DNA of 64,000 nt from positions 387,141 through 451,140 of the forward strand of contig NZ_JAJBZT010000002.1 in NCBI RefSeq assembly GCF_020564625.1, given 5' to 3'. Position 1 is the stretch's first letter. The number at the start of each line of letters is the position of its first letter. This document shows positions 35,964 through 52,819 of this stretch, one piece after another. The translations under genes were made by a program, and so were the position numbers. Origin of the DNA: Leeia speluncae. Its GTDB lineage: Bacteria > Pseudomonadota > Gammaproteobacteria > Burkholderiales > Leeiaceae. The notes beneath the pieces were generated by a model. It saw nothing but the letters and a program-made list of their open reading frames with translations, ran no database searches and had not been told where the DNA came from.

Positions 35964-36746
35964 TTAACGAGAAAAAGGAATTCGCTGATACCCCATTCGC
36001 TTCACAGCAAGTACTGGTAAGCGAATCATAAACTCAACCATTAAACGGAAGTGCATCCACGTTAATAATTTATTGTCTCGCCAGTAATTAAAGTGCGATA
36101 CCCCGCCCTCAGAAGCTTCAAAATATTTGACTGGCGCAGGGAAATTAATTGGCGGTACGCCATACCAGCAGAGCCTCACTACCGCTTCTGGGTCAAAATC
36201 AAACCGGCGCATCCACTTTTGGCGATGCATAATGTCTCGCAGGGCTGCCACTGGATAAATTCGGAAGCCAAATAAGGAATCCCCAACACCCATCCCCATG
36301 GTTTCTAAATTGGCCCACCAATTAGACACTTTCCGACCATTTACCCGTAAAGCGGGCGCGCTCGCATCAAATACAGGTTTGCCTAGCACCATGGCTTCTG
36401 GATGGGTTTGCGATGCCTGCATAAAAGCAGGAATCAGATCCGCCGGATGTTGGCCATCGGCATCCATACAGAGTGCATGAGTAAAACCTTGTTTGGCTGC
36501 TTCATCTAATCCAAACAATACTGCAGAACCTTTGCCGGCATTCTGGGGCAGTTCTAAAATGGTTAAGCCATCATCGTTTTTGGCCAGCTCGCGTAACCAT
36601 TCAGTACTGCCATCGGTACTACCATCCACGACAACCCATACCGGCGACCATACCTCGCGTGCGGCGCGAATCGTCTCCAAAATTTTCTTACCAGGGTTGT
36701 AACTAGGGATCAGCACCAAATGGGTTGCAGATGGCAAAGACGACAT
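35964..36746 (-). CDS. Family-2 glycosyltransferase (DPM1-like)
   Basis: GT2 motifs LIPSYNP...VVVDGSTDGS...DAD. Confidence 0.8.
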   Translation of the reverse strand: MSSLPSATHLVLIPSYNPGKKILETIRAAREVWSPVWVVVDGSTDGSTEWLRELAKNDDGLTILELPQNAGKGSAVLFGLDEAAKQGFTHALCMDADGQHPADLIPAFMQASQTHPEAMVLGKPVFDASAPALRVNGRKVSNWWANLETMGMGVGDSLFGFRIYPVAALRDIMHRQKWMRRFDFDPEAVVRLCWYGVPPINFPAPVKYFEASEGGVSHFNYWRDNKLLTWMHFRLMVEFMIRLPVLAVKRMGYQRIPFSR

Positions 36747-36760
36747 AATGCGCTTTCTTT

Positions 36761-37519
36761 TTATTTAGAACGAAGTTGGCGATCTAGCGTATACCGCAAA
36801 TCGATAAATTGTTGGTCTTGGTACAAATCTTGTAGCCGCTTTGTCGTTTCTGCCACCACACCACTGGCTTCAATTTCCTCACCAAGTTTCACTTGGTAAC
36901 ACACGGGAAATTGCGGTGGTTTCCAAATCGGCCAAGACTTGGTCAGGTAAGGTGAATTGGTATAAATAAACACTGGCAATAAATTCACTTTGGCTTTTTT
37001 GGCGATTAACGCCGCCGTACCATGAAAGGTATTCACCGGGGTTTCCGTCGTCCGCGTCCCTTCTGGAAACAGAAGTAAATGATCACCTGCTTTTACCTTG
37101 GCAATCGCCTCTCTAAGCATCCGCTCGGTATAGCGATTCGACACATAGCCCGCTAGTTTGGCACCTGCACCTAAGAAAAGGTTCGTTTCTAATCTGCCTT
37201 TCATGATACAGATCATCCGATTCACTCTGGACAACACTAAAAACGCATCAATCATTGCAGGGTGGTTGGGCACCACCACTAACCCTTTCCGGCGATTGAT
37301 TTCATCTAGCGCGGACAAATCGCAATACAACAAACCAAAGAACCGACAACCAGCAAAAAATATCCGGCAAATGCGGCTAATCGCAAACTGTACTAATCGG
37401 GCATGAAACGAATTAGGGAAAGGTAGTAAAGGCAATACAAGTGCATTTCCTATTAACAACATGCTCCCAAGCCAGAACAGCATCAGATAAAAGAGAACAA
37501 TTTGTAAAAGTCGGCGCAC
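36761..37519 (-). CDS. Lysophospholipid/1-acyl-glycerol-3-phosphate acyltransferase (PlsC-like)
   Basis: HX4D-type motif (PNHPAMIDAF) and FPEGTRT motif, with N-terminal TM helices. Confidence 0.75.
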   Translation of the reverse strand: MRRLLQIVLFYLMLFWLGSMLLIGNALVLPLLPFPNSFHARLVQFAISRICRIFFAGCRFFGLLYCDLSALDEINRRKGLVVVPNHPAMIDAFLVLSRVNRMICIMKGRLETNLFLGAGAKLAGYVSNRYTERMLREAIAKVKAGDHLLLFPEGTRTTETPVNTFHGTAALIAKKAKVNLLPVFIYTNSPYLTKSWPIWKPPQFPVCYQVKLGEEIEASGVVAETTKRLQDLYQDQQFIDLRYTLDRQLRSK

Positions 37520-37673
37520 GGTGTAAGAATTTTCGTTGGGGGTAAAGTTGTCTTTGCCGTGTAACCCAGATCTGCTATTAATCAGAAACTAATTTGAGCA
37601 AAAACAACAAGATGAAGCCCGCCGCGTAGCAGCGTGTTATGCCATTTTACTATATAATGCACCCCTCTCCAAA

Positions 37674-37955
37674 ATGTTAAATTCAGCACAGAACATGTTA
37701 AATTCTTTGGTTAAAAACTATCTGATCAACATCAAACAAAAAGATGCGGCCTTATTCGATAAGCCTGATTTGCAGATTGCAGACTTAGCGTTAGATTCAT
37801 TAGACATGGTCGAAATGCTGTTTGAAATTGAAGACAAATGTGGGTTCCAATTAGATGACCCAATGCGTTATTTGAAGATGTCTTACCAAGGCATGTTAGA
37901 CGACATCGAGAAACAAATTCGCGCCAATAATAATGGCGAAATGATTTCCCTTTAA
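37674..37955 (+). CDS. Acyl carrier protein
   Basis: Phosphopantetheine attachment motif LDSLDMVEM. Confidence 0.8.
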   Translation: MLNSAQNMLNSLVKNYLINIKQKDAALFDKPDLQIADLALDSLDMVEMLFEIEDKCGFQLDDPMRYLKMSYQGMLDDIEKQIRANNNGEMISL

Positions 37956-37975
37956 TTCGTTAAGGCTGGCTCAAC

Positions 37976-39220
37976 GTGGCGAAAGTACTGATCACCGGCA
38001 TCGGAGCCATCACCCCCATTGGTAATGATGCAAATTCCACCTTTGCATCTGCCATTGCAGGAAAAAGCGGCATCAAACAGCCGGATGGCAAAATGCATGA
38101 GTGGCTACCGAATTTAGTGGTAGCGCCATCCGAAAACCCACAGTCTTTACTTCCCCCCGCGTTTGCAGGGCTAGACCGCGCCGCCCAATTTGGCCTGGTT
38201 GCCGCGTTAGAAGCCATGCAACAAGCCAACATAGAAACCCCAACCGCAGATGCTCGTCGGTTTGGGGTATTTGTTGGGATTGGCTTTGGCGGTGCGCAAA
38301 CGGTGGATGGCGTATACGATAGACTGATTGCCGCCGCGAGCGCCAGCAAACCCTTGCCTGTCCTACATCCACTCTCTGTCCCCCGCATGATGGCCAATGC
38401 GCCAGCCGCAGCGTTATCGATGCACTTTGGTCTTAAAGGGCCCAGCAATACCTACTCGGTTGCCTGTGCCTCTTCGGCAATTGCGCTTGGTGAAGCCTTC
38501 CGAGCCATCAAACACGGTTATCTAGATGCTGCGATTGTGGTGGGCGCAGAAGCCATGCTGACCCCGGGTGCCATGCTTGCTTGGAACGCACTACGTGTGA
38601 TGGCGAAGCCAGACGCAACAGACCCTGCCACCAGTTGCAAACCTTTTTCAGCCAATCGCTGTGGGTTTGTGATGGGGGAAGGTGCCGGTGCGATCGTCTT
38701 AGAAGCGGAGCATCGCGCAATCACGAGAGGTGCTAACGTGATTGCGGAGGTCGCTGGTTATGGCTATAGCAGTGATGCGGCCCACCTCACCGCGCCTTCT
38801 TCCGAAGAACAAATTGTCGCGATGGAAATGGCACTTGCTGAGGCAGGTCTTCACGCATCGGACATTCAGTACTTGAATGCGCATGGCACCGCGACCCAAG
38901 CTGGCGACATTACCGAAACGGATTCGATCAAAGCCACCTTTGGCGCGCACACTGCCAATCTGCCGGTTAGTTCGACCAAAGCGCTACATGGTCACTTAAT
39001 TGGAGCAAGTGGTATTGTCGAGTTTCTAATTAGTGTGATGGCGATGAACCAAGGCATCTTGCCCCCAACGGCTCACCTCTCCGAGCCTGATGCAGCCTGT
39101 GATCTCGACTTTATTCCCAACACAGCAAGGAATACCGGGGCATTATCGGCAGTCATGTCGAACTCGTTTGCGTTTGGCGGAAGTAATGCGTCCCTGATTG
39201 CACGGAAATACTCCGCATGA
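37976..39220 (+). CDS. Beta-ketoacyl-ACP synthase (KAS I/II-like)
   Basis: Active-site C (YSVACASS) and HGTAT / HLIGASG His motifs. Confidence 0.85.
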   Translation: MAKVLITGIGAITPIGNDANSTFASAIAGKSGIKQPDGKMHEWLPNLVVAPSENPQSLLPPAFAGLDRAAQFGLVAALEAMQQANIETPTADARRFGVFVGIGFGGAQTVDGVYDRLIAAASASKPLPVLHPLSVPRMMANAPAAALSMHFGLKGPSNTYSVACASSAIALGEAFRAIKHGYLDAAIVVGAEAMLTPGAMLAWNALRVMAKPDATDPATSCKPFSANRCGFVMGEGAGAIVLEAEHRAITRGANVIAEVAGYGYSSDAAHLTAPSSEEQIVAMEMALAEAGLHASDIQYLNAHGTATQAGDITETDSIKATFGAHTANLPVSSTKALHGHLIGASGIVEFLISVMAMNQGILPPTAHLSEPDAACDLDFIPNTARNTGALSAVMSNSFAFGGSNASLIARKYSA

Positions 39221-39702
39221 GTGAAAACAACGACTTGCAGTATCCATTCTCACTGAATGCAGAAGCGATTCGCGAGTTGTTGCCTCATCGTGGTTGTATT
39301 GTGGCGTATGATAGTTTGACCATTGAAGGGCCGCATACCTTTGTTGGAAAAGCCAGATGGGATCGTCAGAATCCAATTATTGAAGGCCACTTCCCAACGC
39401 TTCCGATTGTGCCGGGTGTCATGCTCATTGAAGCACTCGCCCAGCTTGCTGGCGCAGGTTTATTGGCGGGCGACCCTTATGTACGAAGCCTACCTAAAGA
39501 CCAATTAGGGATGTTGGCCGGTACACGAAACTGCTGGTTTAAAGCACCTGTCAGGCCAGAAGAGGAAGTCGTCTTTCATATTCAATGTAGGCAGTTTGCC
39601 GAACGAATCACACTCGCAGCAGCAACAGTCAAAGTGGGCGACGTAGAAGTCGCAAAGCTAGAGATTTCGATAGCATATGCGGAAACCCCTGCGCTCGCAT
39701 AA
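39217..39702 (+). CDS. FabA/FabZ-like hot-dog 3-hydroxyacyl-ACP dehydratase
   Basis: HFP...PGVMLIEALAQ motif. The start overlaps the KAS stop. Confidence 0.75.
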   Translation: MSENNDLQYPFSLNAEAIRELLPHRGCIVAYDSLTIEGPHTFVGKARWDRQNPIIEGHFPTLPIVPGVMLIEALAQLAGAGLLAGDPYVRSLPKDQLGMLAGTRNCWFKAPVRPEEEVVFHIQCRQFAERITLAAATVKVGDVEVAKLEISIAYAETPALA

Positions 39703-39764
39703 ACCAAAACACCACTCCCCAATGCCGACATTTGCGTGGGCATGGGGCAGCAGAAGGTTGATGA

Positions 39765-40490
39765 TTAAATCATCCCACCATTCACAGAAATCACCTGACC
39801 AGTAATATAAGCGGCTTCTTCAGAAGCCAGAAAACCGACCAAACTAGCCACTTCTTCTGGGCGGCCGGCTCGCTGTACCGGCACCATTTGTTTGATCATG
39901 TCTTTATCAAACACATCTTTCGTCATGTCCGATTCAATAATCCCCGGTGCAACGGCATTCACCGTAATGCCTCGGCTAGCCACTTCCATTGCTAGCGATT
40001 TGGTCGCACCATGTAGCCCCGCTTTAGCTGCCGCGTAGTTGGTCTGACCACGGTTCCCCGCAATCGCCGCCACAGAAGAAATATTGATAATGCGACCCCA
40101 ACGGGTGCGAATCATCGGCATCATTAAGGGTTGGGTCACATGGAAAAAGCCATTGAGTGAGACATTAATCACCTTGTGCCATTGCTCGCTAGATAAACCG
40201 GGGAACACCGCATCGTCATGAATACCCGCATTATTCACGACAACCTGAATCGGGCCATTTTCTAGCAAAGCCTCTAGTGCGGTGCGTGTAGCGGCTTCAT
40301 TGGCAATATCAAACTGGATAACGTCTGCTGCACCACCCGCGGCGGTAATGTCAGCGGCTAATGCATCCGCCCGGTCTCGCTGGCGATTCGCATGAATCAC
40401 CACGTGAAACCCCATACTGGCTAACTTTTGGCAAACCGCCGCGCCAATTGCCCCACTACCACCCGTGACTAACGCTTTTTTCAATTCCAA
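39765..40490 (-). CDS. fabG: 3-oxoacyl-ACP reductase (SDR family, FabG-like)
   Basis: TGGSGAIG cofactor motif with a YxxxK catalytic pair (YAAAK). Confidence 0.85.
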   Translation of the reverse strand: MELKKALVTGGSGAIGAAVCQKLASMGFHVVIHANRQRDRADALAADITAAGGAADVIQFDIANEAATRTALEALLENGPIQVVVNNAGIHDDAVFPGLSSEQWHKVINVSLNGFFHVTQPLMMPMIRTRWGRIINISSVAAIAGNRGQTNYAAAKAGLHGATKSLAMEVASRGITVNAVAPGIIESDMTKDVFDKDMIKQMVPVQRAGRPEEVASLVGFLASEEAAYITGQVISVNGGMI

Positions 40491-40496
40491 ACCCTT

Positions 40497-40958
40497 TTAC
40501 ATCGCTAACGAGCGAATATCCAAGACCGCACTTAGGCGGCCTTCCGCCAATAACACTTCATTTGCATGGGCGGTAAATTCATACATCACCATCGATTGAT
40601 CGCCCGATAAGCGGGTCGCACGAATTTGCATCGACACGCCTAGCGTATCTAGTCGGTCGCAATACCATTTCACTTGCCGAATACTGGTGAGATACCCCGC
40701 CGCCGGTGCAGACGCTCCCGCCGCCAGCAATCCACCATGTACGGCCATCGCTTGCGCTGCATATTCAATAATCGCCGATACACCCAACCGGCCTTCCGCT
40801 GTTAACGGATGATCACTCGTTAAATGCGAGGTTGCCGAACAGACAATCTCATCTGCACTCCACGCTTCCACCTTATCCAGCAAACACATAGTGCCTTTAT
40901 GAGGAATCCGTTGCTGAATCTCTTCATGGCTTAGCTGCGTTGGGAGGCTCATAGGCAA
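40497..40958 (-). CDS. Hot-dog fold dehydratase/thioesterase-like protein
   Basis: 153-aa hot-dog protein within the fatty-acid-like cluster. Confidence 0.55.
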   Translation of the reverse strand: MPMSLPTQLSHEEIQQRIPHKGTMCLLDKVEAWSADEIVCSATSHLTSDHPLTAEGRLGVSAIIEYAAQAMAVHGGLLAAGASAPAAGYLTSIRQVKWYCDRLDTLGVSMQIRATRLSGDQSMVMYEFTAHANEVLLAEGRLSAVLDIRSLAM

Positions 40959-41740
40959 GTCACCTCAATGGCTAATTGCGATGGCGCTAGATAATCCACC
41001 ACTACTCGCCCAGCAGTCTGATTTGCTAATAAAGCTAACATCGGTAAAGCTCGCGCTGCCGGCACCATTAGGCGTAACGCTTCTAACGCCGCATCTTCCA
41101 TCTGGGCGCTCGCCTCATCGGTTAATGCAAAACGCACAGATGCTAAAGATTGGGCGGTTTGTACCGGACTAAATACCATTCCCACCCCAAACGGATAAGG
41201 AATCGGACGAATCGCATTTAATGGGTCTGGATAGGCAGAATCAAACGCAATTAAGAGGACTGGTTTGTCTAAAGACACCACCAAAGGCAATGCTTCTAAT
41301 AGCCCCGCCCCGAAGGTCGCATCATACGCACACAAGCTTGTCGACGTTTCCATGCTCTTAGCCCCAATCGACCAATAGCCAGCGGCGGCATTGTGCACCG
41401 AATTATGAAAGCGGGTCGGTGAAATCGAGCGATCATCTGACGCTAGGGTTTCTAAAATTTGGTGACAATTTTCACAATCGCCACCAGTAGAAACAAACAC
41501 CGATGGCAACGCGGCTAGCGCGATACCTGCTTTTTCTGCCGCTTCGACGCCTAGCGCCATGGATAAGCGAGTTGCCGTGCCGGTTCGACGACGTTCTGTT
41601 GGCGGCAGCAAGGCAGCAGGCGGTAAGGCAACATCGGCTAACACAAGAGGCGTTTCCCCGCGTAACACGCTAGTCGCCGTTTCCCAGTTAGGTAAACCAG
41701 GGCCAATCACGCTAACACTTTCTAAAAACACTTGGCGCAT
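40949..41740 (-). CDS. Ketosynthase-like chain-length-factor-type protein (KS fold without canonical active-site Cys context)
   Basis: N-terminal KS-like sequence (VSVIGPGLPNW), truncated relative to a KAS. It is paired with the KAS encoded immediately downstream (41745..42935). Confidence 0.55.
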   Translation of the reverse strand: MRQVFLESVSVIGPGLPNWETATSVLRGETPLVLADVALPPAALLPPTERRRTGTATRLSMALGVEAAEKAGIALAALPSVFVSTGGDCENCHQILETLASDDRSISPTRFHNSVHNAAAGYWSIGAKSMETSTSLCAYDATFGAGLLEALPLVVSLDKPVLLIAFDSAYPDPLNAIRPIPYPFGVGMVFSPVQTAQSLASVRFALTDEASAQMEDAALEALRLMVPAARALPMLALLANQTAGRVVVDYLAPSQLAIEVTCL

Positions 41741-41744: not shown

Positions 41745-42935
41745 TTATCCCTTAGAGAAAATCAAACTACAGTTACTACCACCAAAACCAAATGAATTGG
41801 TCAGTACATGCTGGATATTCGCTACCTGATTATCGAGCAAATAATGGCAAGCAATGTCTGGATCTAATTCCGTTGTGCCAACGCCAGCCGGTAGAAAACC
41901 CTCGGTAAGCGCAATCGCACTAAAAATGGCCTCTAAGCCACCGGCCGCACCCAGAGTGTGTCCGGTATGGCCTTTGGTCGAACTACACGGTGTATTCTTG
42001 CCAAACAACGCCGTCACAGCTTTACCTTCGGCAGCATCATTACTTGGGGTGGCCGTACCATGTAGGTTAATGTAGCCAATCTCTGCAGGCGTTAAGCCTG
42101 CCATGCTGAGTGCCGCACGCATTGCCTGCTGAGCGCCTAATCCTTCCGGGTGCGGGGACGACATATGATGCGCGTCGCTAGTTTCCCCATAGCCAGTTAG
42201 ATAAATCCCCTGTTTCACGTCCGCCCGCTCAGGTTGCTCTAATAAGGCAAACGCTGCGCCTTCCCCAATGGAAATGCCATTTCTGGCAACGTCATAGGGT
42301 TTACACGGGGCGACTGATACCAATTGCAGCGATGAAAAACCATAAATCGTCGTTAGACACAAACTATCCACGCCACCCACAATGGCGGCATCTGCTAATC
42401 CACATTCAATGAGTCGTTCAGCGGCGGCAAATACTTTTGCACTAGAAGAGCACGCGGTAGAGACAACGTTCGCAATCCCGGTTAGGCCAAAATAGGTACG
42501 CACAAAATCAGCCAAGGAGTAGGTATTTTGTGTTTGGCGATAACGATGCCCAACGGGTAACGCCCCTGTTTCCGGATCTCGCTCACGATAAGCTACTTCG
42601 GTGCTTAAAATTCCGGAAGTACTCGTACCGAGTAAGACCGCAACACGGTTGGGGCCGTATTTGGTAATCGCGTGAAGCACCGCCGTTTCAAAGCCATCTT
42701 GCTGTAAGGCTAAGTAAGCCAATTGATTATTGCGGCAATCAAAATGCTTCACGGCGTCTGGTAGCACCACCTCATCAACACCCGCTACTTCACCTGTGCA
42801 GAACTCGAAAGAAACGGTTTCCCATGATTTCTTCACAATGCCACTTTGCTTGGCTTTTAACGCGGCGATCTGTTCAGCTAAACCGACCCCCAGTGCAGAA
42901 GTTGCGGTATAAGAAGACATCAACAAAGGTTTCAT
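41745..42935 (-). CDS. Beta-ketoacyl-ACP synthase
   Basis: KS motifs VSTACSSS and HGTATPSND, GHTLGAAG. Confidence 0.85.
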   Translation of the reverse strand: MKPLLMSSYTATSALGVGLAEQIAALKAKQSGIVKKSWETVSFEFCTGEVAGVDEVVLPDAVKHFDCRNNQLAYLALQQDGFETAVLHAITKYGPNRVAVLLGTSTSGILSTEVAYRERDPETGALPVGHRYRQTQNTYSLADFVRTYFGLTGIANVVSTACSSSAKVFAAAERLIECGLADAAIVGGVDSLCLTTIYGFSSLQLVSVAPCKPYDVARNGISIGEGAAFALLEQPERADVKQGIYLTGYGETSDAHHMSSPHPEGLGAQQAMRAALSMAGLTPAEIGYINLHGTATPSNDAAEGKAVTALFGKNTPCSSTKGHTGHTLGAAGGLEAIFSAIALTEGFLPAGVGTTELDPDIACHYLLDNQVANIQHVLTNSFGFGGSNCSLIFSKG

Positions 42936-43788: not shown

Positions 43789-44423
43789 GGATGACTCGCT
43801 TGTGTGAATGGAGGTGTGAGTACGGTGTTTACCCATGCTAGCCACATTTGCTGCCAAACAGGCCACTCATGTTTACCCGGCAACCATTGGGCCTTCGTGT
43901 TGGGTAAATACTTTTCAAGCAACTGTTGCCCAGCAAGAAAACGGTCTTTCTCACTTAGCCATAAATCGATTGTTGGCTTTGCCAATAAGGGATTGCCCAA
44001 CCATCCCCACCAACGGCGCTCATCTGTGAGCGTGGTATCGGTTTGCCATTCTGCAGGGATACCTTGGTTATCTGTTATGGCACTCAGCACATCTGACGTC
44101 CCCGCATAGGGGGCAAATAACACCAATCGCTCCACTACAGTTGGGTAGCTCGCCGCAAATTGCAGCGCATTGAATGCCCCTAGCGATATGCCACCCAGCC
44201 AGATTCGCTCGTTCTCCTTTGGGGCAATCTGTTCGTGCAAATAGTTTGCTGCCGTGCCAGACATTACTTGTTCATAGCCAATATCAATGCACGACACCTC
44301 AATAGGCAACGATAAAGAAGCCACCAGCGTCAGAAACCCTTTTTCGACATAATCCTGACTCGTTGCCATCGCAGGCGGTAACAGGATCAGTCGAATCAGT
44401 GGATCGGCAAGGTGGTTGGTCAT
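43785..44423 (-). CDS. Alpha/beta-hydrolase-fold protein
   Basis: GxSxG nucleophile elbow (GISLG). Confidence 0.45.
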   Translation of the reverse strand: MTNHLADPLIRLILLPPAMATSQDYVEKGFLTLVASLSLPIEVSCIDIGYEQVMSGTAANYLHEQIAPKENERIWLGGISLGAFNALQFAASYPTVVERLVLFAPYAGTSDVLSAITDNQGIPAEWQTDTTLTDERRWWGWLGNPLLAKPTIDLWLSEKDRFLAGQQLLEKYLPNTKAQWLPGKHEWPVWQQMWLAWVNTVLTPPFTQASHP

Positions 44424-46753: not shown

Positions 46754-47403
46754 TATTTGCTGCTCGTTTCCGTAATCGTCATTTCAGAACGGTCACCATC
46801 TGCCTGCAAAAAGGTAATCATCTTGATTTGGGTTTTCGTCCCCTGAATACGAATCTGCGAAATCACTTTCTGCATTTTGCTTTGTGTCGGGGTAAGCGAA
46901 ATTTGCCATTGTTCTGGCTTACCATTAAGGACTATCGCGTAATATTTTTCTAAACCAGCCTTATCACCCGCCAACGTCGCACGGATACTTTCTACAAAAG
47001 CAGATACCTCTGGGCGATCAGACAATGAGACGTTCAGTTTTTTGCCATCCGCCCGCTCAACCATCAGTTTATCGCCTTGCAGAATCATGCTTTCGGCGGC
47101 CGGGCTGAGGGTACGTTTTTCCAAACGGTCTGGCGCGGTAAACGCCAATTGGCCTGTCGACTCTAATGGCTGGTTCAAGGTACTAATAAATTTCTTCTCG
47201 ACAAAGGTCGCCGTGCCCGCTTTTTTCTGGCTGAGGGACTGCATCAGATCATTCACGCCCCATTCGGCAGCCATGCTCGTCGCTGCGGCCACCAATAGAG
47301 AAATGCCTACACAGGCACGCGTCACTACAGACAATTTACGCATTTGTTGCATGCTCTTCCCAAAAATCATAATAATTAAACCAGTTATACGGGTAAGACT
47401 CAC
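46753..47403 (-). CDS. LolA-like outer-membrane lipoprotein-carrier-fold protein with signal peptide
   Basis: Signal peptide (LSVVTRACVGISLLVAAATSMA) and a LolA-like size and position next to the MMPL gene. The start may be the Met at 47352. Confidence 0.55.
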   Translation of the reverse strand: MSLTRITGLIIMIFGKSMQQMRKLSVVTRACVGISLLVAAATSMAAEWGVNDLMQSLSQKKAGTATFVEKKFISTLNQPLESTGQLAFTAPDRLEKRTLSPAAESMILQGDKLMVERADGKKLNVSLSDRPEVSAFVESIRATLAGDKAGLEKYYAIVLNGKPEQWQISLTPTQSKMQKVISQIRIQGTKTQIKMITFLQADGDRSEMTITETSSK

Positions 47404-48274
47404 AGAACCTTTCTAAGGTTTCCGCATACTGTTTGACCAACTTTTCCACTGCGGCTGCTCGGTCTTTTGGTTTGCCTTCCGCAAAGGAAGTAATTTCCTC
47501 AAATACAACCTCGTACCGATTCCCCCCCGCGTACAGCCCGGCCATAAAATAAAGCGGAAAACCCAGCATCACCGCCATGCGAAATGGCCCCGTTGGAAAT
47601 CTAGCCGTTTTACCTAAAAACTCGACTGCCACATATTCGTCTGGCCCCGATGCTCTATCGGCCAAAATCCCGACAAGGCGGTTTTCTTTAAGTCGCTGAT
47701 GGACGGTTAGCATCGCCTCTAGCGACCCTAATTCAATAATATCGCCCAAGCATTCGGGGTTCACCATCTTGAGTAGTGCATTAATCTGCTGCGCATTTTC
47801 GCTATACATCGCCATATTCATCCGCACGTCCGGATGTTTTCTAGCCACCGCTCTGAGCACCTCAAAACTACCCATGTGCGCACCAAATAGCAGCATTCCC
47901 TGTTGGCCGAGTTGCGAATTCACTGCTTCCGCGCCAGAAAATCCAATATCGAACAGCGAATACTTATCTTGCAAGAGATACAAACGATCATGAATGGTCG
48001 TTGCAAACACCAAGAAGTGCCGGTAACGATCACTTAACCGTGGTTTTCGCTTTAATGCCCTAGCCAAATAAGTAGCCGAGTGTTTTCTTGCCTTCGCAGA
48101 AAACACAAAAAAATACACCGCGATCAAATGCAAAATGAGGCGCGAGCCATTACGCCCTAAAAAATTAGACAACCCCAGCATGATGCGCAGCCAAAACATA
48201 GAGCCACGCTCTTTTTGCTGCATCCATTCTGGAGACGTGTTTTCAACCTCACTCATTATGCGGCATCTGCCCAA
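47336..48274 (-). CDS. LpxL/HtrB-family (lipid-A-type) acyltransferase
   Basis: About 300 aa with an N-terminal TM anchor and a lauroyl/myristoyl acyltransferase-like signature. Confidence 0.5.
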   Translation of the reverse strand: MGRCRIMSEVENTSPEWMQQKERGSMFWLRIMLGLSNFLGRNGSRLILHLIAVYFFVFSAKARKHSATYLARALKRKPRLSDRYRHFLVFATTIHDRLYLLQDKYSLFDIGFSGAEAVNSQLGQQGMLLFGAHMGSFEVLRAVARKHPDVRMNMAMYSENAQQINALLKMVNPECLGDIIELGSLEAMLTVHQRLKENRLVGILADRASGPDEYVAVEFLGKTARFPTGPFRMAVMLGFPLYFMAGLYAGGNRYEVVFEEITSFAEGKPKDRAAAVEKLVKQYAETLERFCESYPYNWFNYYDFWEEHATNA

Positions 48275-48573
48275 GCCAATTTGCCATCTGCCACTTTCCC
48301 TTCGGCATGGCGAATCAAAAACTTAACGCCACTTGCGTCTGGCGTTAACTCAATCGCTAATTGATCCCCCGGTAACACTGGCCGGTGAAACTTAGCGACC
48401 GATACCCCTGCGACCGCTCTCGCGATCTGCTTTTCTACAGCAAGCACGACAAAATCCAGCAACACCACACCGGGTAATACAGGCTGCCCCGGGAAATGCC
48501 CCGGAAACGCGGCGTGATCCATCGGCACCACGATGTCGCTAAACAAGACTTCACTCATGACGCGCTCCTGCAA
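48256..48573 (-). CDS. Hot-dog fold thioesterase/dehydratase
   Basis: HFPG.PVLPGV motif. Confidence 0.55.
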   Translation of the reverse strand: MQERVMSEVLFSDIVVPMDHAAFPGHFPGQPVLPGVVLLDFVVLAVEKQIARAVAGVSVAKFHRPVLPGDQLAIELTPDASGVKFLIRHAEGKVADGKLAWADAA

Positions 48574-49900
48574 AATGGGTAGTGATCATCGCTTGCAACG
48601 ACTTTGCCAACACCTTGCCATTTACATCTCTAGGAATATCATCCACCACAATAAAAGGTCTTGGTAAAAACACAGGGTCGATATATTGGCGCAACCCCAT
48701 CAAGACGTCAGCTTTATTTGCATTGGGCGCAAGTACCACAAAAGCCGCTAGTCGCTCGATTTCATCGTGTTCTTTTTTGGGGGGCACAAAGAAAACGCCA
48801 TCTTTTACCCCATCTACTCGCAGCAAAATGGTATTGAGGAAACTTAATGAGCTGCGTTTTCCTGCCACACTCACCAAATTACCTTTACGATCAATAAAGC
48901 GGAATTTATCTTCGCCCACCAACTCCACCACATCGTTAATGACTTGCGGGCGTTCAATCAGCAGACCCTCTGCCCAAGTATCTTCATCATTCTGTAAGAC
49001 ACGAATATGCGGTAAACACGTCCACAACGCATTTTCGGTTGCCCGGCGCGTTGCAATTTGTCCGGTTTCGGTCGAGCCATAAATTTCCCACACCGGTACC
49101 TGAAAACGCGCCTCCACGGCTTCTGCCAACTCCAGACTAAGTGGTGCAGTCGCAGACAAAATTAACGCCACTTCCGGTAACGCGGTGCCAGACTCTAGTA
49201 AATTGCGTAAGTGGTATGGCGTAGTCACCAGTAATCGCGGCGCAGGCATCTTGGCTAAGCACGCCGCAATATCCGCCGGGAAAAACGGCATTTCATCCAC
49301 CAACACACCGCCACCAAAGACCGACAATAACGCGCTGGACTCAAACCCATACATATGGCGAAATGGCGCAGTCCCGACAACCGAACACACACCACCGGCT
49401 GCCGCCCATAAGCGTTCTGCACTGCCTTCCATGCTATACACTAACCGACCAAACTGTTTGAAGTGGACCGTCGGCACGCCTGTAGAACCAGAGGTAAACA
49501 AGCAAGCAATGGTCTGATCAAATGGGATTAGCGGTGAATCACCCACCCAATCCGAAGACAAGGCATCTATATCTACCGACACAGAAGCTTGTGAAGGCAA
49601 CGGGTTCTCATCGGTACGAACCACCACAATATCGGGATATTGCTCAACAATCGCTTTTAAATGCTCTGGCGCCAACGAATTTGGCAAGACAGACAACAAC
49701 CCTTTACGCGTTGCGGCAAACAACGACACCAAAAAGGAGTAGCGATCCCCGCATAGGTTCATCAACACCCCATGGTTTGGCAACGCATCAGAAAATGACA
49801 TCACATGAGAGAGAAACTGTTGGCGACTAATGGTGCGATCTGCCAACAAGGCAAATGGCACATCGGCCAACGGATGAGGAACCAGCGGTAATTGCGTCAT
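48551..49900 (-). CDS. AMP-dependent synthetase/ligase (acyl-ACP synthetase-like)
   Basis: AMP-binding motif FTSGSTGVP. Confidence 0.8.
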   Translation of the reverse strand: MTQLPLVPHPLADVPFALLADRTISRQQFLSHVMSFSDALPNHGVLMNLCGDRYSFLVSLFAATRKGLLSVLPNSLAPEHLKAIVEQYPDIVVVRTDENPLPSQASVSVDIDALSSDWVGDSPLIPFDQTIACLFTSGSTGVPTVHFKQFGRLVYSMEGSAERLWAAAGGVCSVVGTAPFRHMYGFESSALLSVFGGGVLVDEMPFFPADIAACLAKMPAPRLLVTTPYHLRNLLESGTALPEVALILSATAPLSLELAEAVEARFQVPVWEIYGSTETGQIATRRATENALWTCLPHIRVLQNDEDTWAEGLLIERPQVINDVVELVGEDKFRFIDRKGNLVSVAGKRSSLSFLNTILLRVDGVKDGVFFVPPKKEHDEIERLAAFVVLAPNANKADVLMGLRQYIDPVFLPRPFIVVDDIPRDVNGKVLAKSLQAMITTHFAGARHE

Positions 49901-49955
49901 CGTGATATCAATGAGAAAAGGTTAAGGTTGCTTCGCTCGCCCACCAAACACCGGG

Positions 49956-50615
49956 TTAAGAAGAACCCCGTTTATGAGATTGGCTAAACTCGCGGTAAAG
50001 TTCGACAGTCCGCTGAATACTAATATGCGACTCATCTGGAAAGGTTCGCAGGCGAATCCAATATTCGCCAGCAAACATCAACCCTAGCGAAACCGGTGCG
50101 GCAATGGCATCAAAGATTGCCCACTTGGGTGCCGGCACAGTCAGAAAAAGTAGCAAAGAGCTACATCCCGCCACCACAAAATACACCGTCCACACCAAGG
50201 TGACTTTCCACGTATAGCGTAAGTAGCGCTCGGTTAAGGGCTCCGATTTTGCCAGTGCCGCTATTTTGGAACATAGCGCGTTGGCGGGGCTGCCTAGCGT
50301 AGAACCAAACATCAACGCCAAAGAGAACATCGCAAATAAATACTGCGCCAAATACAACCAAACCGAATGCTTTAAAAACCAATCGGTTTCTTGCCAAAAC
50401 CACACTGCTAAGGCACCAAAAGCCATCAGCACAGGGTAACGCAGTTTGGTTTTCCAACTAAATCCCAATACGCCGAGTGCAAACGGCGTAACGCCCACAA
50501 AAAAAGCGATGAGCGGTGGCCGATCAGACGCCGATGCCAAGTAGGCAAGCGACATATAGCCGATTACTAAGCCAGCAATGCCGGCTAGTTTTAGCCATCG
50601 CCAAATGGGGTTCAT
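49956..50615 (-). CDS. Hypothetical integral membrane protein of the lipid cluster
   Basis: Six predicted TM helices. Confidence 0.35.
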   Translation of the reverse strand: MNPIWRWLKLAGIAGLVIGYMSLAYLASASDRPPLIAFFVGVTPFALGVLGFSWKTKLRYPVLMAFGALAVWFWQETDWFLKHSVWLYLAQYLFAMFSLALMFGSTLGSPANALCSKIAALAKSEPLTERYLRYTWKVTLVWTVYFVVAGCSSLLLFLTVPAPKWAIFDAIAAPVSLGLMFAGEYWIRLRTFPDESHISIQRTVELYREFSQSHKRGSS

Positions 50616-50878
50616 TTAGTACGGTTTTCCGCCACAAATGCAGTCAACGCACGCAGAGACGCAAAAATTTTGGTGTTGTCTGCGCTATCAGCTTTAATTT
50701 GTACGCCGTATTTTTTAGACAGTACCAAGGCAATTTCTAAAATATCGATAGAATCGACTCCCAAGCCATCACCATAAATAGGCGCTTCTGGATCGATTTC
50801 TTCTGGTGTCATTTCCAGATTGAGTGCGGACACAATTTGTCCGGCAATTTCTAGCTCTAATGCTTGATCATGAGACAC
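50612..50878 (-). CDS. Acyl carrier protein (second ACP)
   Basis: LGVDSIDILE phosphopantetheine site. Confidence 0.75.
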   Translation of the reverse strand: MSHDQALELEIAGQIVSALNLEMTPEEIDPEAPIYGDGLGVDSIDILEIALVLSKKYGVQIKADSADNTKIFASLRALTAFVAENRTK

Positions 50879-50937
50879 GATAGTTGATTCCTATAATTTG
50901 AGATGCCCGACCTATTTTTGTCGCCAACATCGCCATT

Positions 50938-50969
50938 CTGAAAATGATCATGTTATTATCATTTTTCAG
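50938..50969. promoter_or_regulatory. Near-perfect 12-bp inverted repeat (CTGAAAATGAT-N9-ATCATTTTTCAG) in the divergent promoter region of the lipid-pigment cluster
   Basis: The inverted repeat was read directly from the sequence. Confidence 0.5.
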
Positions 50970-51090
50970 TCTTTTACCCCGTTTTTCGCCAGGTATTTCC
51001 CCGATCAAATCGAGGTGAAAAATCTTGCAATTTTAACAGCTATTAACATATATGCCAATCAGCTAAGATTGGTCGTTTTGGAAGAAGTCT

Positions 51091-51759
51091 TTGTTACCCA
51101 CGTTTGGCTCAATTTCGCCACTAGCGTATCTAAAAAAAACAGCATTTTCTAATTTTTTGCTTAAGACAGTCGGCAACACTGCATTTATGACATTATTCTT
51201 TGTCGGCTACTTATATTTGCTACACCACCCGAGCGGCAACATCACCCGCATTCCCACCACCATTGTGGATCAGATAGTTCCGTTTAGCATGTATGGTCTA
51301 CCTGTCTATCTTTCCCTATGGCTGTACGTCTCTTTACCCAATTTTTTGATTCATACGTTCGCAGAGTTAGCAGATTATGGTTGGCGCGTGGCAACCCCTT
51401 GCGTGCTTGGACTCGCCATTTTCTATTTCTATCCCACCATGATCACCCCTAACCCCGCCGATTGGCACGGAATAGAAAGTATCGAGTTTCTAAAAAAAGT
51501 AGATGCAGCCGGTAATGCCTGCCCCTCTTTACACGTCGCCATGGCGCTCTATTCTTGCCTTTGGATGCACTGGCGCCTAGCTAGAATCCGCGCTGCTAAA
51601 TGGGTAAATGTGATCAATTGGGCGTGGTGCATCGGGATTATTTGGTCCACCATGGCCATACGCCAACATTTTTTTATTGATGTGCTAGCAGGGATTTTAC
51701 TCGCTTTAACAACAGCTTACCTCACCAGGCTAAAATCTCATGCCATGCGTTTGACATGA
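51091..51759 (+). CDS. PAP2-superfamily-like membrane protein
   Basis: PSLHVAMAL / ...H... PAP2-like motifs; polytopic. Confidence 0.45.
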   Translation: MLPTFGSISPLAYLKKTAFSNFLLKTVGNTAFMTLFFVGYLYLLHHPSGNITRIPTTIVDQIVPFSMYGLPVYLSLWLYVSLPNFLIHTFAELADYGWRVATPCVLGLAIFYFYPTMITPNPADWHGIESIEFLKKVDAAGNACPSLHVAMALYSCLWMHWRLARIRAAKWVNVINWAWCIGIIWSTMAIRQHFFIDVLAGILLALTTAYLTRLKSHAMRLT

Positions 51760-51826
51760 CGATGCGCATCGCGCACAATCCGCCCAGCCAAAAGCAAATC
51801 TGCATCTAGCGTACCGGAATACACCC

Positions 51827-52819
51827 ATGCCGTTGTTGTTTACACATTCAGCCAAAGACATTGCTAACCGCCATCTATTAGGGGCGGCTAGTACTCAAGA
51901 CGTCTCACCATCCGCCACACAAAGTACCCCGTTTCAGACCTTACACATGCCTGTATTAGGTCAATCGGCGCAAGAAGCTGGCGAGTTTTGGTTAGTAGAG
52001 AAAGCCTGCCAAGCAGCACAATTTGGTGATATTCGCTACCAATGGAATGAAGATTTCCTATTTGGCGTGGTCGAACTAGATGAACACAGCATCCACGCAA
52101 CAGACACGCATCCCCTGCAAGTATTGGCAGAAAAAGCCTATTTACAGATTTTCGAGTTACTAGACCAAACCGGCTTTCCGCATATTTGGCGGGTGTGGAA
52201 TTACATGCCAGCCATCAACCAGCAGGAAAATGGCGTAGAGCGCTATCGCTGGTTTAATATTGGCCGTCATGAAGCATTTAATAAGACACAGCGGGAAGTC
52301 TCTTTTAGCCCGGCAGCCTGTGCATTAGGCTCGCACAATGGCCCGCTGAGTATTGCGTTTTTGGCAGCCAAAACCCCGACAAAACGCATTGAAAACCCGC
52401 GCCAAGTAAGTGCCTTTAATTACCCGAGTGAATACGGTCCCAAAAGCCCTACCTTCACCCGAGCAGCCCTTGCAGCCCTAAATGGCAAACATATTTTATT
52501 CATTTCTGGTACGGCGAGTATTGTGAATCACCACACCGTCCATATTGGCGATATTGTCGGGCAAACCCAAGAAACGTTTACCAATATTCACACGCTGGTG
52601 AATGAAGCAAATACGCTCATTCGGCATCCTGCTTTTGCAATGAACCAACTGTATTACAAAGTCTATATTCGTCATCCACAGCATTTTGCATTGGTGAAAG
52701 AGATTGTAGAAAAAACGGTTGGTAATGCCGCCGTACAATACGTACAAGCAGATATTTGTCGTCAGGATTTATTGGTAGAAATTGAAGCGCACGGCATTAA
52801 TCGCAGCCAAATCAATTAA
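51827..52819 (+). CDS. Chorismatase-family protein (XanB2/FkbO/Hyg5-like; C-terminal RidA/YjgF fold)
   Basis: C-terminal RidA-like motif ISGTASI...GDIVGQTQETF...YYKVYI...LLVEIEAHGI. The start may be the downstream Met (MPVLGQ...). Confidence 0.5.
   Translation: MPLLFTHSAKDIANRHLLGAASTQDVSPSATQSTPFQTLHMPVLGQSAQEAGEFWLVEKACQAAQFGDIRYQWNEDFLFGVVELDEHSIHATDTHPLQVLAEKAYLQIFELLDQTGFPHIWRVWNYMPAINQQENGVERYRWFNIGRHEAFNKTQREVSFSPAACALGSHNGPLSIAFLAAKTPTKRIENPRQVSAFNYPSEYGPKSPTFTRAALAALNGKHILFISGTASIVNHHTVHIGDIVGQTQETFTNIHTLVNEANTLIRHPAFAMNQLYYKVYIRHPQHFALVKEIVEKTVGNAAVQYVQADICRQDLLVEIEAHGINRSQIN

What the first reader, a model, noticed from the sequence alone, without database searches (positions are those of the whole stretch)
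35964..52819. Aryl-polyene/xanthomonadin-type lipid pigment biosynthetic cluster with XanB2-like chorismatase
Gene content fits an APE-family cluster, with fatty-acid-like type II PKS machinery dedicated to a membrane-anchored polyene. It has two ACPs, two KAS enzymes plus a truncated KS-like CLF partner, FabA- and FabZ-like dehydratases, a FabG ketoreductase and an acyl-ACP synthetase-type AMP ligase. It also has PlsC- and LpxL-type acyltransferases, a GT2, a CE4 deacetylase, an MMPL exporter with a LolA-like carrier and hot-dog thioesterases. On the opposite strand it carries a chorismatase-family enzyme with a RidA-like C-terminus. Chorismatase in place of an ammonia-lyase suggests a hydroxybenzoate starter, as in xanthomonadin, which would be notable in a non-xanthomonad host. 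The DUF482 acyltransferase abutting rtcR may belong to the cluster.
Basis: partly seen in the sequence, partly recalled or inferred. Interest (0 to 1): 0.6.

Follow-up and report, generated by a model that had tools for sequence, protein, structure and literature searches.

The report
Aryl-polyene pigment cluster with chorismatase
This is an intact gene cluster for a membrane-bound yellow aryl-polyene (xanthomonadin/arcuflavin-like) pigment lipid that starts from hydroxybenzoate made by its own chorismatase, but the same kind of cluster was already described in Betaproteobacteria in 2013-14, so it is an ordinary new member.

Summary
The three hot-dog proteins match dehydratases (FabZ/ApeI/ApeP), not thioesterases.

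The KS and CLF match the solved ApeO and ApeC structures best. The 330-aa protein has the FkbO/Hyg5 chorismatase N-domain and Hyg5's catalytic Glu. At the two positions where Hyg5 (Gly, Cys) differs from FkbO, it matches Hyg5.

The host is Leeia sp. TBRC 13508 (Betaproteobacteria, Neisseriales). The claim that a chorismatase-primed cluster is notable outside xanthomonads fails:
- At least 581 species genomes encode relatives, and the best 80 are almost all Betaproteobacteria.
- 62 of 81 loci link the chorismatase to the same cluster genes.
- Azoarcus, Dechloromonas, Variovorax and Sideroxydans clusters were published in 2014, with ArcB shown to make 3-HBA.
- Pseudogulbenkiania subflava has the same gene order.

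DUF482/FemAB-like is absent from all 84 related loci, and relatives have a methyltransferase at that position. This cluster has no methyltransferase, halogenase or DAR genes, so an unmethylated, unhalogenated pigment is predicted. It is a new member of a known kind, of low interest.

The parts
35964..36746 (-). Family-2 glycosyltransferase (ArcE-like); adds the sugar of the lipid anchor (inferred)
   Evidence: PF00535 at 8.6e-21. 64-74% identical orthologues lie in 59 of 81 chorismatase loci.
36761..37519 (-). PlsC/LPLAT-type acyltransferase (ArcD/ApeD-like)
   Evidence: PF01553 at 3.4e-13. TIGR00530 at 5.5e-14. Linked in 62 of 81 loci.
37674..37955 (+). Acyl carrier protein 1 (LDSLD phosphopantetheine site), first gene of the ACP-KS-DH trio
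   Evidence: PF00550, 21.1 bits, cut-off 20.8. The DSL motif is read. 62-66% identical orthologues lie in L017, L082, L083 and L084.
37976..39220 (+). FabF-like elongating ketosynthase with a Cys-His-His triad; a cluster-specific paralogue
   Evidence: Both KS domains are present. It falls below the fabF equivalog cut-off, 383 against 494 bits. The best PDB match is FabF at 300 bits; ApeR 7f27 scores 236. 60-67% identical orthologues sit in the same context in Pseudogulbenkiania, Rhodocyclus and Crenobacter.
39217..39702 (+). FabZ/ApeI-like dehydratase with the HFPxxPxxPGV His motif and the IEALAQ Glu
   Evidence: PF07977 at 9.1e-12. FabZ structures match at 3.6e-14. Orthologues carry PF22818 and PF07977.
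39765..40490 (-). FabG-type ketoreductase (ApeQ/XanH/ArcH-like)
   Evidence: adh_short at 2e-54 and KR at 1.5e-23. 62-73% identical orthologues lie in 39 loci.
40497..40958 (-). ApeP-like hot-dog dehydratase subunit
   Evidence: Only weak direct matches: FabZ NF000582 at 6e-5 and ApeP 6qsr_B at E 0.35. The syntenic orthologues, 54-55% identical, carry PF22817 ApeP-like.
40949..41740 (-). Truncated KS-like chain-length factor (ApeC/ArcJ-like)
   Evidence: PF13723 at 3.2e-31. The only PDB matches are ApeC chains: 6qsp_B at 3.4e-14 and 7f28_A at 4.1e-10.
41745..42935 (-). Ketosynthase partner of the CLF (ApeO/ArcK-like)
   Evidence: NF006618 scores 529.7 bits, cut-off 407. The best PDB matches are ApeO 7f28_B at 262.7 bits and 6qsp_A at 252.7 bits; the best FabF scores 187.
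42964..43866 (-). CE4 polysaccharide deacetylase (ArcN-like); probably starts downstream of the listed GTG
   Evidence: PF01522 at 6.9e-25. The gene is syntenic in 14 loci and is listed in the Azoarcus and Dechloromonas clusters.
43785..44423 (-). Alpha/beta serine hydrolase (ArcO position); candidate chain-release or acyl-transfer enzyme
   Evidence: Sub-threshold Abhydrolase_1 match. 9 of 10 orthologues match Abhydrolase_1. GISxG Ser80, Asp160 and His185 are invariant in 10 orthologues.
44420..46753 (-). MMPL/RND-type exporter (ApeM/ArcP-like)
   Evidence: PF03176 at 9.1e-11. Syntenic orthologues are 40-59% identical.
46753..47403 (-). LolA-like periplasmic lipid carrier (ApeL/ArcQ-like)
   Evidence: PF19574 at 4.3e-23 and PF03548 at 1.4e-9.
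47336..48274 (-). LpxL/HtrB-type acyltransferase (ApeJ/ArcR position)
   Evidence: PF03279 at 9.9e-12. NCBIfam lipid A and PIM acyltransferase models match.
48256..48573 (-). ApeI-like dehydratase subunit (ArcS-like) with the HFPGQPVLPGV motif
   Evidence: PF22818 scores 34.1 bits, cut-off 28.5, and PF07977 also matches. PDB matches are FabZ and ApeI 6qsr_A.
48551..49900 (-). Adenylate-forming aryl acid:ACP ligase (XanA2/ArcT/ApeH-like)
   Evidence: PF00501 and PF13193 match. The best NCBIfam match is 4-coumarate-CoA ligase at 5.6e-27, sub-threshold. The gene is syntenic with arcT, which adenylates 3-HBA.
49956..50615 (-). Integral membrane protein of unknown family (ApeG/ArcU position)
   Evidence: No Pfam or NCBIfam match. 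It is conserved between the ligase and the ACP in related loci, 28-52% identical.
50612..50878 (-). Acyl carrier protein 2 (GVDSID site; XanC/ArcV/ApeE-like), first gene of the 13-gene operon
   Evidence: PF00550 scores 33.1 bits. Orthologues are 59-79% identical.
51091..51759 (+). PAP2 lipid phosphatase, co-oriented with the chorismatase
   Evidence: PF01569 at 1.1e-12 and PF14378 at 1.1e-11. It is present in 9 of 81 loci across Neisseriales and Rhodocyclales. daro_4168 is listed in the published D. aromatica cluster.
51827..52819 (+). XanB2/ArcB-like chorismatase (hydroxybenzoate synthase)
   Evidence: PF21168 scores 132.5 bits. TIGR04444 scores 230.9, below its cut-off of 325. PDB matches are Hyg5 and FkbO. 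E318 corresponds to Hyg5 E334, G228 to G240 and C311 to C327. These residues are invariant in 24 homologues.

Best explanation
This is a complete, single-locus aryl-polyene (APE) lipid pigment cluster of the betaproteobacterial xanthomonadin/arcuflavin type, in Leeia sp. TBRC 13508.

**Proposed pathway**
1. The chorismatase (51827-52819) converts chorismate to 3- and/or 4-hydroxybenzoate.
2. The AMP-ligase (48551-49900) adenylates the acid and loads it on ACP2 (50612-50878).
3. The ApeO-like KS and ApeC-like CLF, the FabG-like KR and the ApeI/ApeP-like dehydratase pair extend it with malonyl units. There is no enoyl reduction, so the product is a conjugated polyene.
4. The ACP1 / FabF-like KS / FabZ-like DH trio (37674-39702) either performs the first elongations or builds a second acyl chain. 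Xenorhabdus APE lipids carry such a chain, a conjugated fatty acid assigned to the second ACP.
5. The PlsC- and LpxL-type acyltransferases, GT2, CE4 deacetylase, PAP2 phosphatase and the alpha/beta serine hydrolase assemble and trim a glycerol/sugar lipid anchor.
6. The membrane protein, the MMPL pump and the LolA-like carrier move the lipid to the outer membrane, where such pigments quench reactive oxygen species and light damage.

**Shown here:** gene identities, conserved catalytic residues, synteny and taxonomic spread.

**Inferred:** every chemical step, the 3- versus 4-HBA choice, the anchor structure and the role of the trio.

Because the window has no methyltransferase or halogenase, the aryl head is predicted to be a plain hydroxyphenyl group.
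For: - **Domains.** All 20 genes have an assignment consistent with this reading.
- **KS and CLF.** The KS matches ApeO structures best, 263 and 253 bits against 187 for FabF. The CLF matches only ApeC structures.
- **Dehydratases.** An ApeI-like Pfam match lies above its cut-off. ApeP-like Pfam matches are found on the syntenic orthologues.
- **Chorismatase.** PF21168 scores 132.5 bits. The catalytic Glu and the Hyg5-type Gly and Cys are conserved and invariant in 24 homologues.
- **Linkage.** The chorismatase lies within 10 kb of PlsC in 62 of 81 loci, GT2 in 59, KR in 39 and KS in 41. The order from KR to ACP is collinear with other species and with the Azoarcus arcH-K and arcN-V genes.
- **Same layout elsewhere.** Pseudogulbenkiania subflava has the identical layout.
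- **Experiments on homologues.** ArcB makes 3-HBA, ArcT adenylates 3-HBA, and arcK and arcT mutants are colourless (PMC3949708). FabG3/XanH is required for xanthomonadin (PMC6859482). The APE lipid structure and the role of the second ACP come from bioRxiv 10.1101/2020.12.19.423268.
- **Operon structure.** The 13 minus-strand genes from 50878 to 39765 overlap or are at most 55 nt apart.
Against: - No product, pigment or expression data exist for this strain. APE clusters can be silent, as in Xenorhabdus.
- The chorismatase scores below the TIGR04444 cut-off, 230.9 against 325 bits. Its product cannot be predicted from sequence (PMC3949708). It has Ala166 where both Hyg5 and FkbO have Gly.
- No dedicated hot-dog thioesterase (ApeK equivalent) is present.
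- The ApeP-like DH matches only weakly by direct search.
- I could not fetch XanB2 or ArcB for a direct alignment.
- About ten 20-kb Burkholderiales loci, mostly Hydrogenophaga, carry the chorismatase with no APE genes within 10 kb. Linkage is therefore not universal, and the enzyme may also serve ubiquinone synthesis.
Confidence: 0.85

Rival explanations
1. The polyene is not attached to a glycerol/sugar lipid. It is esterified to a dialkylresorcinol made by darAB genes elsewhere in the genome, giving an arcuflavin- or flexirubin-like hybrid.
For: Azoarcus, Dechloromonas, Variovorax and Sideroxydans combine this polyene cluster with unlinked or linked DAR clusters (PMC3949708).
Against: The 64-kb window has no DarA/DarB-like genes. 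The cluster keeps GT2, PlsC, LpxL-type, CE4 and PAP2 genes, which fit a glycolipid or phospholipid anchor. Only 16 of 39 genomes in the 2014 survey had DAR genes.
Confidence: 0.12
2. The chorismatase mainly supplies 4-hydroxybenzoate for ubiquinone and is only a neighbour. The polyene starter comes from another source.
For: XanB2 is bifunctional and feeds CoQ8 (PMC3949708). The gene is on the opposite strand, in its own PAP2-chorismatase unit. About ten 20-kb Burkholderiales loci, mostly Hydrogenophaga, have the chorismatase without APE genes nearby.
Against: The chorismatase is linked to APE genes in 62 of 81 loci, in several different gene orders. That pattern argues for selection on co-location. 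The cluster has no ammonia-lyase or other starter-forming enzyme. The ligase homologue ArcT accepts 3-HBA.
Confidence: 0.08
3. The cluster makes a non-aryl polyunsaturated or hydroxy fatty-acyl glycolipid. The AMP-ligase then acts as a fatty acyl-ACP synthetase.
For: The ligase has only sub-threshold family matches. The extra KS is closest to housekeeping FabF. Lipid-tailoring enzymes dominate the locus.
Against: The KS and CLF are specifically ApeO/ApeC-like. An ApeI-like DH is present. The cluster is collinear with clusters proven to make aryl polyenes. A chorismatase is linked to it.
Confidence: 0.04

Closest known systems
Arcuflavin (arc) cluster of Azoarcus sp. BH72 and the arc-like cluster of Dechloromonas aromatica RCB (Schoner et al. 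2014, PMC3949708)
   Same: Both hosts are Betaproteobacteria. Both clusters have an XanB2-type chorismatase. The blocks KS-CLF-DH-KR and CE4-hypothetical-exporter-LolA-acyltransferase-DH-AMP ligase-membrane protein-ACP are collinear, and both have the GT2 + PlsC pair. The D. aromatica list also has a second ACP, an extra KS and a PA-phosphatase (PAP2). Homologues from Rhodocyclales are 45-52% (chorismatase) to 70% (GT2, KR) identical.
   Different: Here everything lies in one 17-kb locus, whereas Azoarcus has two unlinked loci. The chorismatase is paired with PAP2 at the ACP end instead of lying next to PlsC-GT2. The window has no halogenase, methyltransferase or DAR genes. An additional FabZ-like DH follows the extra KS.
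Xanthomonadin (pig/xan) cluster of Xanthomonas campestris and the related Lysobacter enzymogenes cluster
   Same: Both use a chorismatase-derived hydroxybenzoate starter (XanB2), an aryl acid:ACP ligase (XanA2) with a dedicated ACP (XanC), a type II PKS with KS and an unusual CLF, a FabG3/XanH ketoreductase, and an outer-membrane pigment (PMC6859482; PMC3949708).
   Different: The host class differs (Gammaproteobacteria). Xanthomonadins are brominated and O-methylated, and no halogenase or methyltransferase is present here. I could not obtain Xanthomonas sequences for a direct comparison.
APE clusters of E. coli CFT073, Xenorhabdus doucetiae and Acinetobacter baumannii (apeA-R)
   Same: The core set is the same: ApeO-like KS, ApeC-like CLF, ApeI/ApeP-like DHs, ApeQ-like KR, two ACPs, an ApeH-like ligase, an ApeM-like RND pump, ApeL-like LolA and ApeD/ApeJ-like acyltransferases. 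The solved ApeO, ApeC and ApeI structures are the best or only specific PDB matches.
   Different: Those clusters have no chorismatase; the starter 4-HBA comes from primary metabolism. They carry an ApeK hot-dog thioesterase, an ApeB methyltransferase and an ApeN DUF3261 protein. Here there are instead an alpha/beta hydrolase, CE4, GT2 and PAP2. The extra KS here is nearer to FabF than to ApeR.
Streptomyces chorismatases Hyg5 (3-HBA synthase, PDB 5ag3) and FkbO (PDB 4bps)
   Same: The fold family is the same over residues 14-321. The catalytic Glu is conserved, as are Hyg5-type Gly240 and Cys327.
   Different: The scores are only 152 and 143 bits, and the protein falls below the TIGR04444 family cut-off. 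It has Ala166 where both solved enzymes have Gly. Its genomic context is a type II PKS lipid cluster, not a type I PKS.

Membership tests
Aryl-polyene (APE) BGC family, core set as defined by Grammbitter et al. 2020 (KS apeO/R, ACP apeE/F, CLF apeC, DH apeI/P, KR apeQ, transporter apeM) | ApeO-type ketosynthase paired with an ApeC-type truncated CLF | tested here: met
   The KS matches ApeO best, 7f28_B at 262.7 bits and 6qsp_A at 252.7, against 187 for FabF. The CLF matches only ApeC chains. The two genes are adjacent, with a 4-nt gap.
Aryl-polyene (APE) BGC family | Second full-length KS (ApeR role) | tested here: inconclusive
   A third KS with an intact Cys-His-His triad is present at 37976-39220. 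It scores higher to FabF (300 bits) than to ApeR 7f27 (236 bits). Its role was not tested.
Aryl-polyene (APE) BGC family | Two ACPs | tested here: met
   PF00550 matches above cut-off on 37674-37955 and 50612-50878. Both carry a DS(L/I)D serine site.
Aryl-polyene (APE) BGC family | ApeI/ApeP dehydratase pair | tested here: met
   ApeI-like PF22818 scores 34.1 bits, cut-off 28.5, on 48256-48573. The protein at 40497-40958 is only weakly FabZ/ApeP-like by direct search. Its syntenic orthologues, 54-55% identical, carry PF22817 ApeP-like.
Aryl-polyene (APE) BGC family | FabG-like KR and RND/MMPL transporter with a LolA-like partner | tested here: met
   adh_short and KR domains match. MMPL and LolA_3 match.
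Aryl-polyene (APE) BGC family | Product is a cell-bound aryl-polyene chromophore | not testable with these tools
   This needs extraction, UV-vis and MS.
Xanthomonadin/arcuflavin subtype | Cluster-linked XanB2-type chorismatase | tested here: met
   PF21168 scores 132.5 bits. The gene lies 950 bp from the first gene of the PKS operon. The same linkage is seen in 62 of 81 loci.
Xanthomonadin/arcuflavin subtype | Aryl acid:ACP ligase next to its ACP (XanA2/XanC, ArcT/ArcV) | tested here: met
   AMP-binding domains match. The order ligase-membrane protein-ACP is identical to arcT-arcU-arcV. Substrate specificity was not tested.
Xanthomonadin/arcuflavin subtype | Halogenase (bromination) and O-methyltransferase | tested here: not met
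   No halogenase or methyltransferase domain was found in any scanned ORF of the window. Methyltransferases taken from relatives give no tblastn hit in the window at E below 0.2. Such genes could still lie elsewhere in the genome.
Xanthomonadin/arcuflavin subtype | DAR (darAB) partner cluster, specific to arcuflavin | tested here: not met
   None is present in the 64-kb window.
Chorismatase family (FkbO / Hyg5 / XanB2) | FkbO/Hyg5-like N-domain plus a RidA/YjgF-like C-domain | tested here: met
   The N-domain scores 132.5 bits against a cut-off of 27. The C-domain scores 25.1 bits, just under its cut-off of 27.3, but the alignment to Hyg5 and FkbO runs through residue 321.
Chorismatase family (FkbO / Hyg5 / XanB2) | Catalytic Glu (Hyg5 E334) and subtype residues (Hyg5 G173, G240, C327) | tested here: met
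   E318, G228 and C311 are conserved, whereas FkbO has Ala at the latter two positions. The first subtype position is Ala166 rather than Gly (residue list from PMC7170507).
Chorismatase family (FkbO / Hyg5 / XanB2) | Membership of the curated FkbO/Hyg5 model TIGR04444 | tested here: not met
   It scores 230.9 bits against a cut-off of 325. This fits a separate XanB2/ArcB-like branch.
Chorismatase family (FkbO / Hyg5 / XanB2) | Product: 3-HBA plus 4-HBA (XanB2 type) versus 3-HBA only (Hyg5 type) | not testable with these tools
   The literature states that the product cannot be predicted from alignment (PMC3949708).
Flexirubin-type APE cluster | Tyrosine ammonia-lyase starter enzyme and DarA/DarB | tested here: not met
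   No ammonia-lyase or DAR genes are present in the cluster or the window.

The most novel reading that the evidence does not exclude
The Neisseriales version of the cluster may make a structurally new aryl-polyene lipid. This version has the PAP2-chorismatase pair at the ACP end, an ACP-KS-FabZ trio, CE4 and an alpha/beta hydrolase, and in this strain it has no methyltransferase or halogenase. The predicted product has an unsubstituted 3-hydroxyphenyl polyene on an amino-sugar anchor (de-N-acetylated by CE4). The anchor's phosphate would be trimmed by PAP2, and a second chain would be built by the trio. No anchor structure has been solved for any xanthomonadin-type cluster, so this compact single-locus cluster could serve as a model for one.
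Probability: 0.3. Interest if true: 0.35.

Novelty: new member of a known kind. Interest (0 to 1): 0.15.

Why it matters
The finding adds the family Leeiaceae, and a compact single-locus layout shared with Pseudogulbenkiania and Vogesella, to a very widespread class of antioxidant and photoprotective outer-membrane pigments. The practical value is modest. All genes sit in 17 kb, which suits heterologous expression. The lack of methyltransferase and halogenase predicts the simplest possible aryl head group. The lipid-anchor enzymes (GT2, CE4, PAP2, alpha/beta hydrolase) are still functionally unassigned in the xanthomonadin-type branch. The finding does not change any concept, because chorismatase-primed aryl-polyene clusters outside xanthomonads have been known since 2013-14.

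Tried and rejected
- **Hot-dog thioesterases.** I searched all three hot-dog proteins against Pfam, NCBIfam and PDB sequences. Only dehydratase matches came back, so the claim is rejected.
- **DUF482/FemAB-like as a cluster member.** tblastn found it in 0 of 84 related loci. A UbiE-like methyltransferase occupies that position in Pseudogulbenkiania and Rhodocyclus. It is rejected as a conserved member. Co-transcription with GT2 (33-nt gap, same strand) cannot be excluded.
- **Fetching the window's own contig.** An exact look-up of the chorismatase was not on record in that collection.
- **Literature on Leeia pigmentation or on APE clusters in Vogesella, Pseudogulbenkiania or Aquitalea.** The held library had nothing relevant.
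- **Promoter and terminator scan.** Promoter-like sites were no more frequent than in shuffles (20 against 26.2). Most terminator-like sites lie inside genes. I did not use the scan for operon calls.
- **Direct comparison with XanB2, ArcB or the E. coli ape DNA.** PDB ApeO, ApeC and ApeI, and the literature tables, were used instead.
- **Table S4 (Xanthomonas gene list) of PMC3949708.** The stored text was mostly hyperlinks and was not usable.

Full report
**1. What is in the sequence**

ORF listing and Pfam/NCBIfam scans show 20 genes between 35964 and 52819. There is no unassigned gap larger than about 210 nt.

A 13-gene minus-strand operon runs from 50878 to 39765. Its genes overlap or are at most 55 nt apart. 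In order, it encodes:
- ACP2
- a 219-aa membrane protein
- an AMP-ligase
- an ApeI-like dehydratase
- an LpxL-type acyltransferase
- a LolA-like protein
- an MMPL pump
- an alpha/beta hydrolase
- a CE4 deacetylase
- a KS
- a truncated KS (Ketoacyl-synt_2)
- a hot-dog dehydratase
- a FabG-type KR

A plus-strand trio encodes ACP1, a FabF-like KS and a FabZ-like dehydratase (37674-39702). It converges on the KR gene and diverges from PlsC-GT2 (37519-35964, minus strand). At the other end, PAP2 (51091-51759) and the chorismatase (51827-52819) are transcribed divergently from ACP2.

The three hot-dog proteins match only dehydratases (FabZ, ApeI, ApeP), never thioesterases.

**2. The chorismatase**

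The test is passed:
- PF21168 scores 132.5 bits against a cut-off of 27.
- The RidA-like C-terminal match is just below threshold.
- The only PDB relatives are Hyg5 (152 bits) and FkbO (143 bits).

In those alignments E318 is the catalytic Glu (Hyg5 E334). G228 and C311 match Hyg5 G240 and C327, where FkbO has Ala. This points to an aromatising hydroxybenzoate synthase rather than an FkbO-type hydrolase. The residue roles are taken from PMC7170507.

A166 replaces a Gly present in both solved enzymes. All these residues are invariant in 24 betaproteobacterial homologues.

The protein falls below the curated FkbO/Hyg5 model, 230.9 against 325 bits. That fits a separate XanB2/ArcB branch. Whether it makes 3-HBA, 4-HBA or both cannot be read from sequence (PMC3949708).

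**3. The PKS core is APE-type**

- The KS at 41745-42935 scores 263 and 253 bits to the solved ApeO proteins of A. baumannii and X. doucetiae, against 187 for the best FabF.
- The truncated KS matches only the two solved ApeC chains.
- The 105-aa dehydratase passes the ApeI-like Pfam cut-off.
- The 153-aa dehydratase is only weakly FabZ/ApeP-like by direct search. Its syntenic orthologues carry PF22817 ApeP-like.
- The extra KS has an intact Cys-His-His triad. It is nearer to FabF (300 bits) than to ApeR (236 bits) and falls below the fabF equivalog cut-off.
- Its partner dehydratase keeps both the FabZ His motif and the Glu.

**4. Host and relatives**

The chorismatase and the extra KS are 100% identical to proteins of Leeia sp. 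TBRC 13508. This organism belongs to Betaproteobacteria, Neisseriales, Leeiaceae. More than 5000 homologues of the chorismatase exist.

A scan of one genome per species found at least 581 genomes with a relative. The best 80 are almost all Betaproteobacteria, including Vogesella, Pseudogulbenkiania, Azonexus/Dechloromonas, Thauera, Accumulibacter, Hydrogenophaga, Methylophilaceae and Sideroxydans.

tblastn with the window's proteins gave these counts of genes within 10 kb of the chorismatase:

| Gene | Loci (of 81) |
|---|---|
| PlsC | 62 |
| GT2 | 59 |
| KS | 41 |
| KR | 39 |
| CLF | 38 |

The usual order is CHOR-PlsC-GT2 | KR-DH-CLF-KS-CE4-hydrolase-MMPL-LolA-LpxL-DH-ligase-membrane protein-ACP.

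The Neisseriales relatives share the window's variant, with PAP2-CHOR at the ACP end. These are Leeia oryzae, two Vogesella species, strain JH1-16 and Pseudogulbenkiania.

Pseudogulbenkiania subflava has the whole layout, including the ACP-KS-DH trio. Rhodocyclus tenuis and a Crenobacter strain also carry the trio in this context.

**5. Cluster limits**

- The DUF482/FemAB-like gene (34794-35930) lies 33 nt downstream of GT2 on the same strand. It is absent from all 84 related loci. Pseudogulbenkiania and Rhodocyclus have a UbiE-like methyltransferase at that position. It is therefore not a conserved member of the cluster.
- On the right, a GAF-HD protein (53006-54160) follows the chorismatase. 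This pairing is seen only in the two Leeia genomes.
- Methyltransferases are common in related loci but have no homologue in the window.
- No halogenase or DAR genes occur anywhere in the 64 kb.

**6. Accessory enzymes**

The 212-aa protein at 43785-44423 has only sub-threshold hydrolase matches on its own. However, 9 of 10 orthologues match Abhydrolase_1. A GISxG serine, an Asp and a His are invariant. It is the best candidate for the chain-release or transfer step that the ApeK thioesterase performs in E. coli-type clusters. This is an inference.

PAP2 recurs in 9 loci across two orders. It is already listed, as daro_4168, in the published Dechloromonas cluster.

**7. Comparison with what is known**

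Schoner et al. 2014 (PMC3949708) described this cluster type in Azoarcus BH72, Dechloromonas aromatica, Variovorax paradoxus and Sideroxydans lithotrophicus. They showed that arcK and arcT mutants are colourless, that ArcB makes 3-HBA and that ArcT adenylates 3-HBA. They also noted that earlier work had already found XanB2 homologues and xanthomonadin-like clusters in beta- and gammaproteobacteria.

The window's KR-to-KS and CE4-to-ACP blocks are collinear with arcH-K and arcN-V. The D. aromatica table already contains a second ACP, an extra KS and the PA-phosphatase.

The Xenorhabdus APE lipid structure is glycerol-phosphate-GalNAc carrying the APE and a conjugated fatty acid assigned to the second ACP. 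It gives a plausible template for the GT2, the acyltransferases, CE4, PAP2 and the ACP-KS-DH trio.

**8. Verdict**

The claimed significance, a chorismatase-primed cluster being notable outside xanthomonads, is not.

This is a new, compact member of a known and very widespread kind. Its only distinctive points are:
- a single-locus layout shared with other Neisseriales;
- an additional FabZ-like dehydratase;
- the absence of methyltransferase and halogenase genes.

Interest is low.

Noticed in passing
window 32574-33195, minus strand (tRNA-like element 32810-32875): The rtcR gene (33196-34797, +) is divergent from a Band_7/SPFH gene and RtcB (31428-32573 and 30172-31398, -). The leader carries a sigma-54-type box, TGGCACgcctaTCGCA, at about 33068-33052. 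It also holds a tRNA-like element (Rfam tRNA 46.3 bits) that ARAGORN does not call as a tRNA, and a weak YrlA (Y RNA-like) match of 23.9 bits against a gathering score of 69. This may be a Y-RNA-like ncRNA in an Rtc operon that has an SPFH protein instead of Ro/Rsr.
   Followed up: partly
window 24466-27975: A VirD4/TraG-type type IV coupling protein (T4SS-DNA_transf, 6e-108) lies next to a 583-aa NlpC/P60 protein. No other conjugation or T4SS genes were seen among the scanned ORFs of the window.
   Followed up: no
window 18042-24291: A 1770-aa CHASE-PAS(x3+)-HisKA-HATPase-REC(x2)-Hpt hybrid sensor kinase is followed directly by a REC-GGDEF response regulator.
   Followed up: no
window 53006-54160: A GAF-HD (HD_5/HD-GYP-like) protein lies immediately downstream of the chorismatase. 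It is 70% identical and in the same position in Leeia oryzae, and absent from the other 80+ loci. It may be a Leeia-specific regulator or simply a neighbour.
   Followed up: partly
window 56700-64000: G+C falls to 0.40-0.44 and the GC skew changes sign near 58 kb. The region holds a truncated rve integrase fragment (57288-57773), a PoNi immunity protein (60792-61640) and several small ORFs with no family match. It looks like a mobile or toxin-immunity islet.
   Followed up: no
loci L012, L015, L026, L043, L051, L055, L057, L062, L070 (Hydrogenophaga and other Burkholderiales): These roughly 20-kb loci carry a 44-49% identical chorismatase but none of the APE cluster genes within 10 kb. In these genomes the enzyme may be unlinked from the pigment genes or may serve another pathway such as ubiquinone synthesis.
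   Followed up: no
window 54170-56686: An 838-aa protein combines WG beta-repeats and Sel1 repeats. It converges on the GAF-HD gene, and its function is unknown.
   Followed up: no
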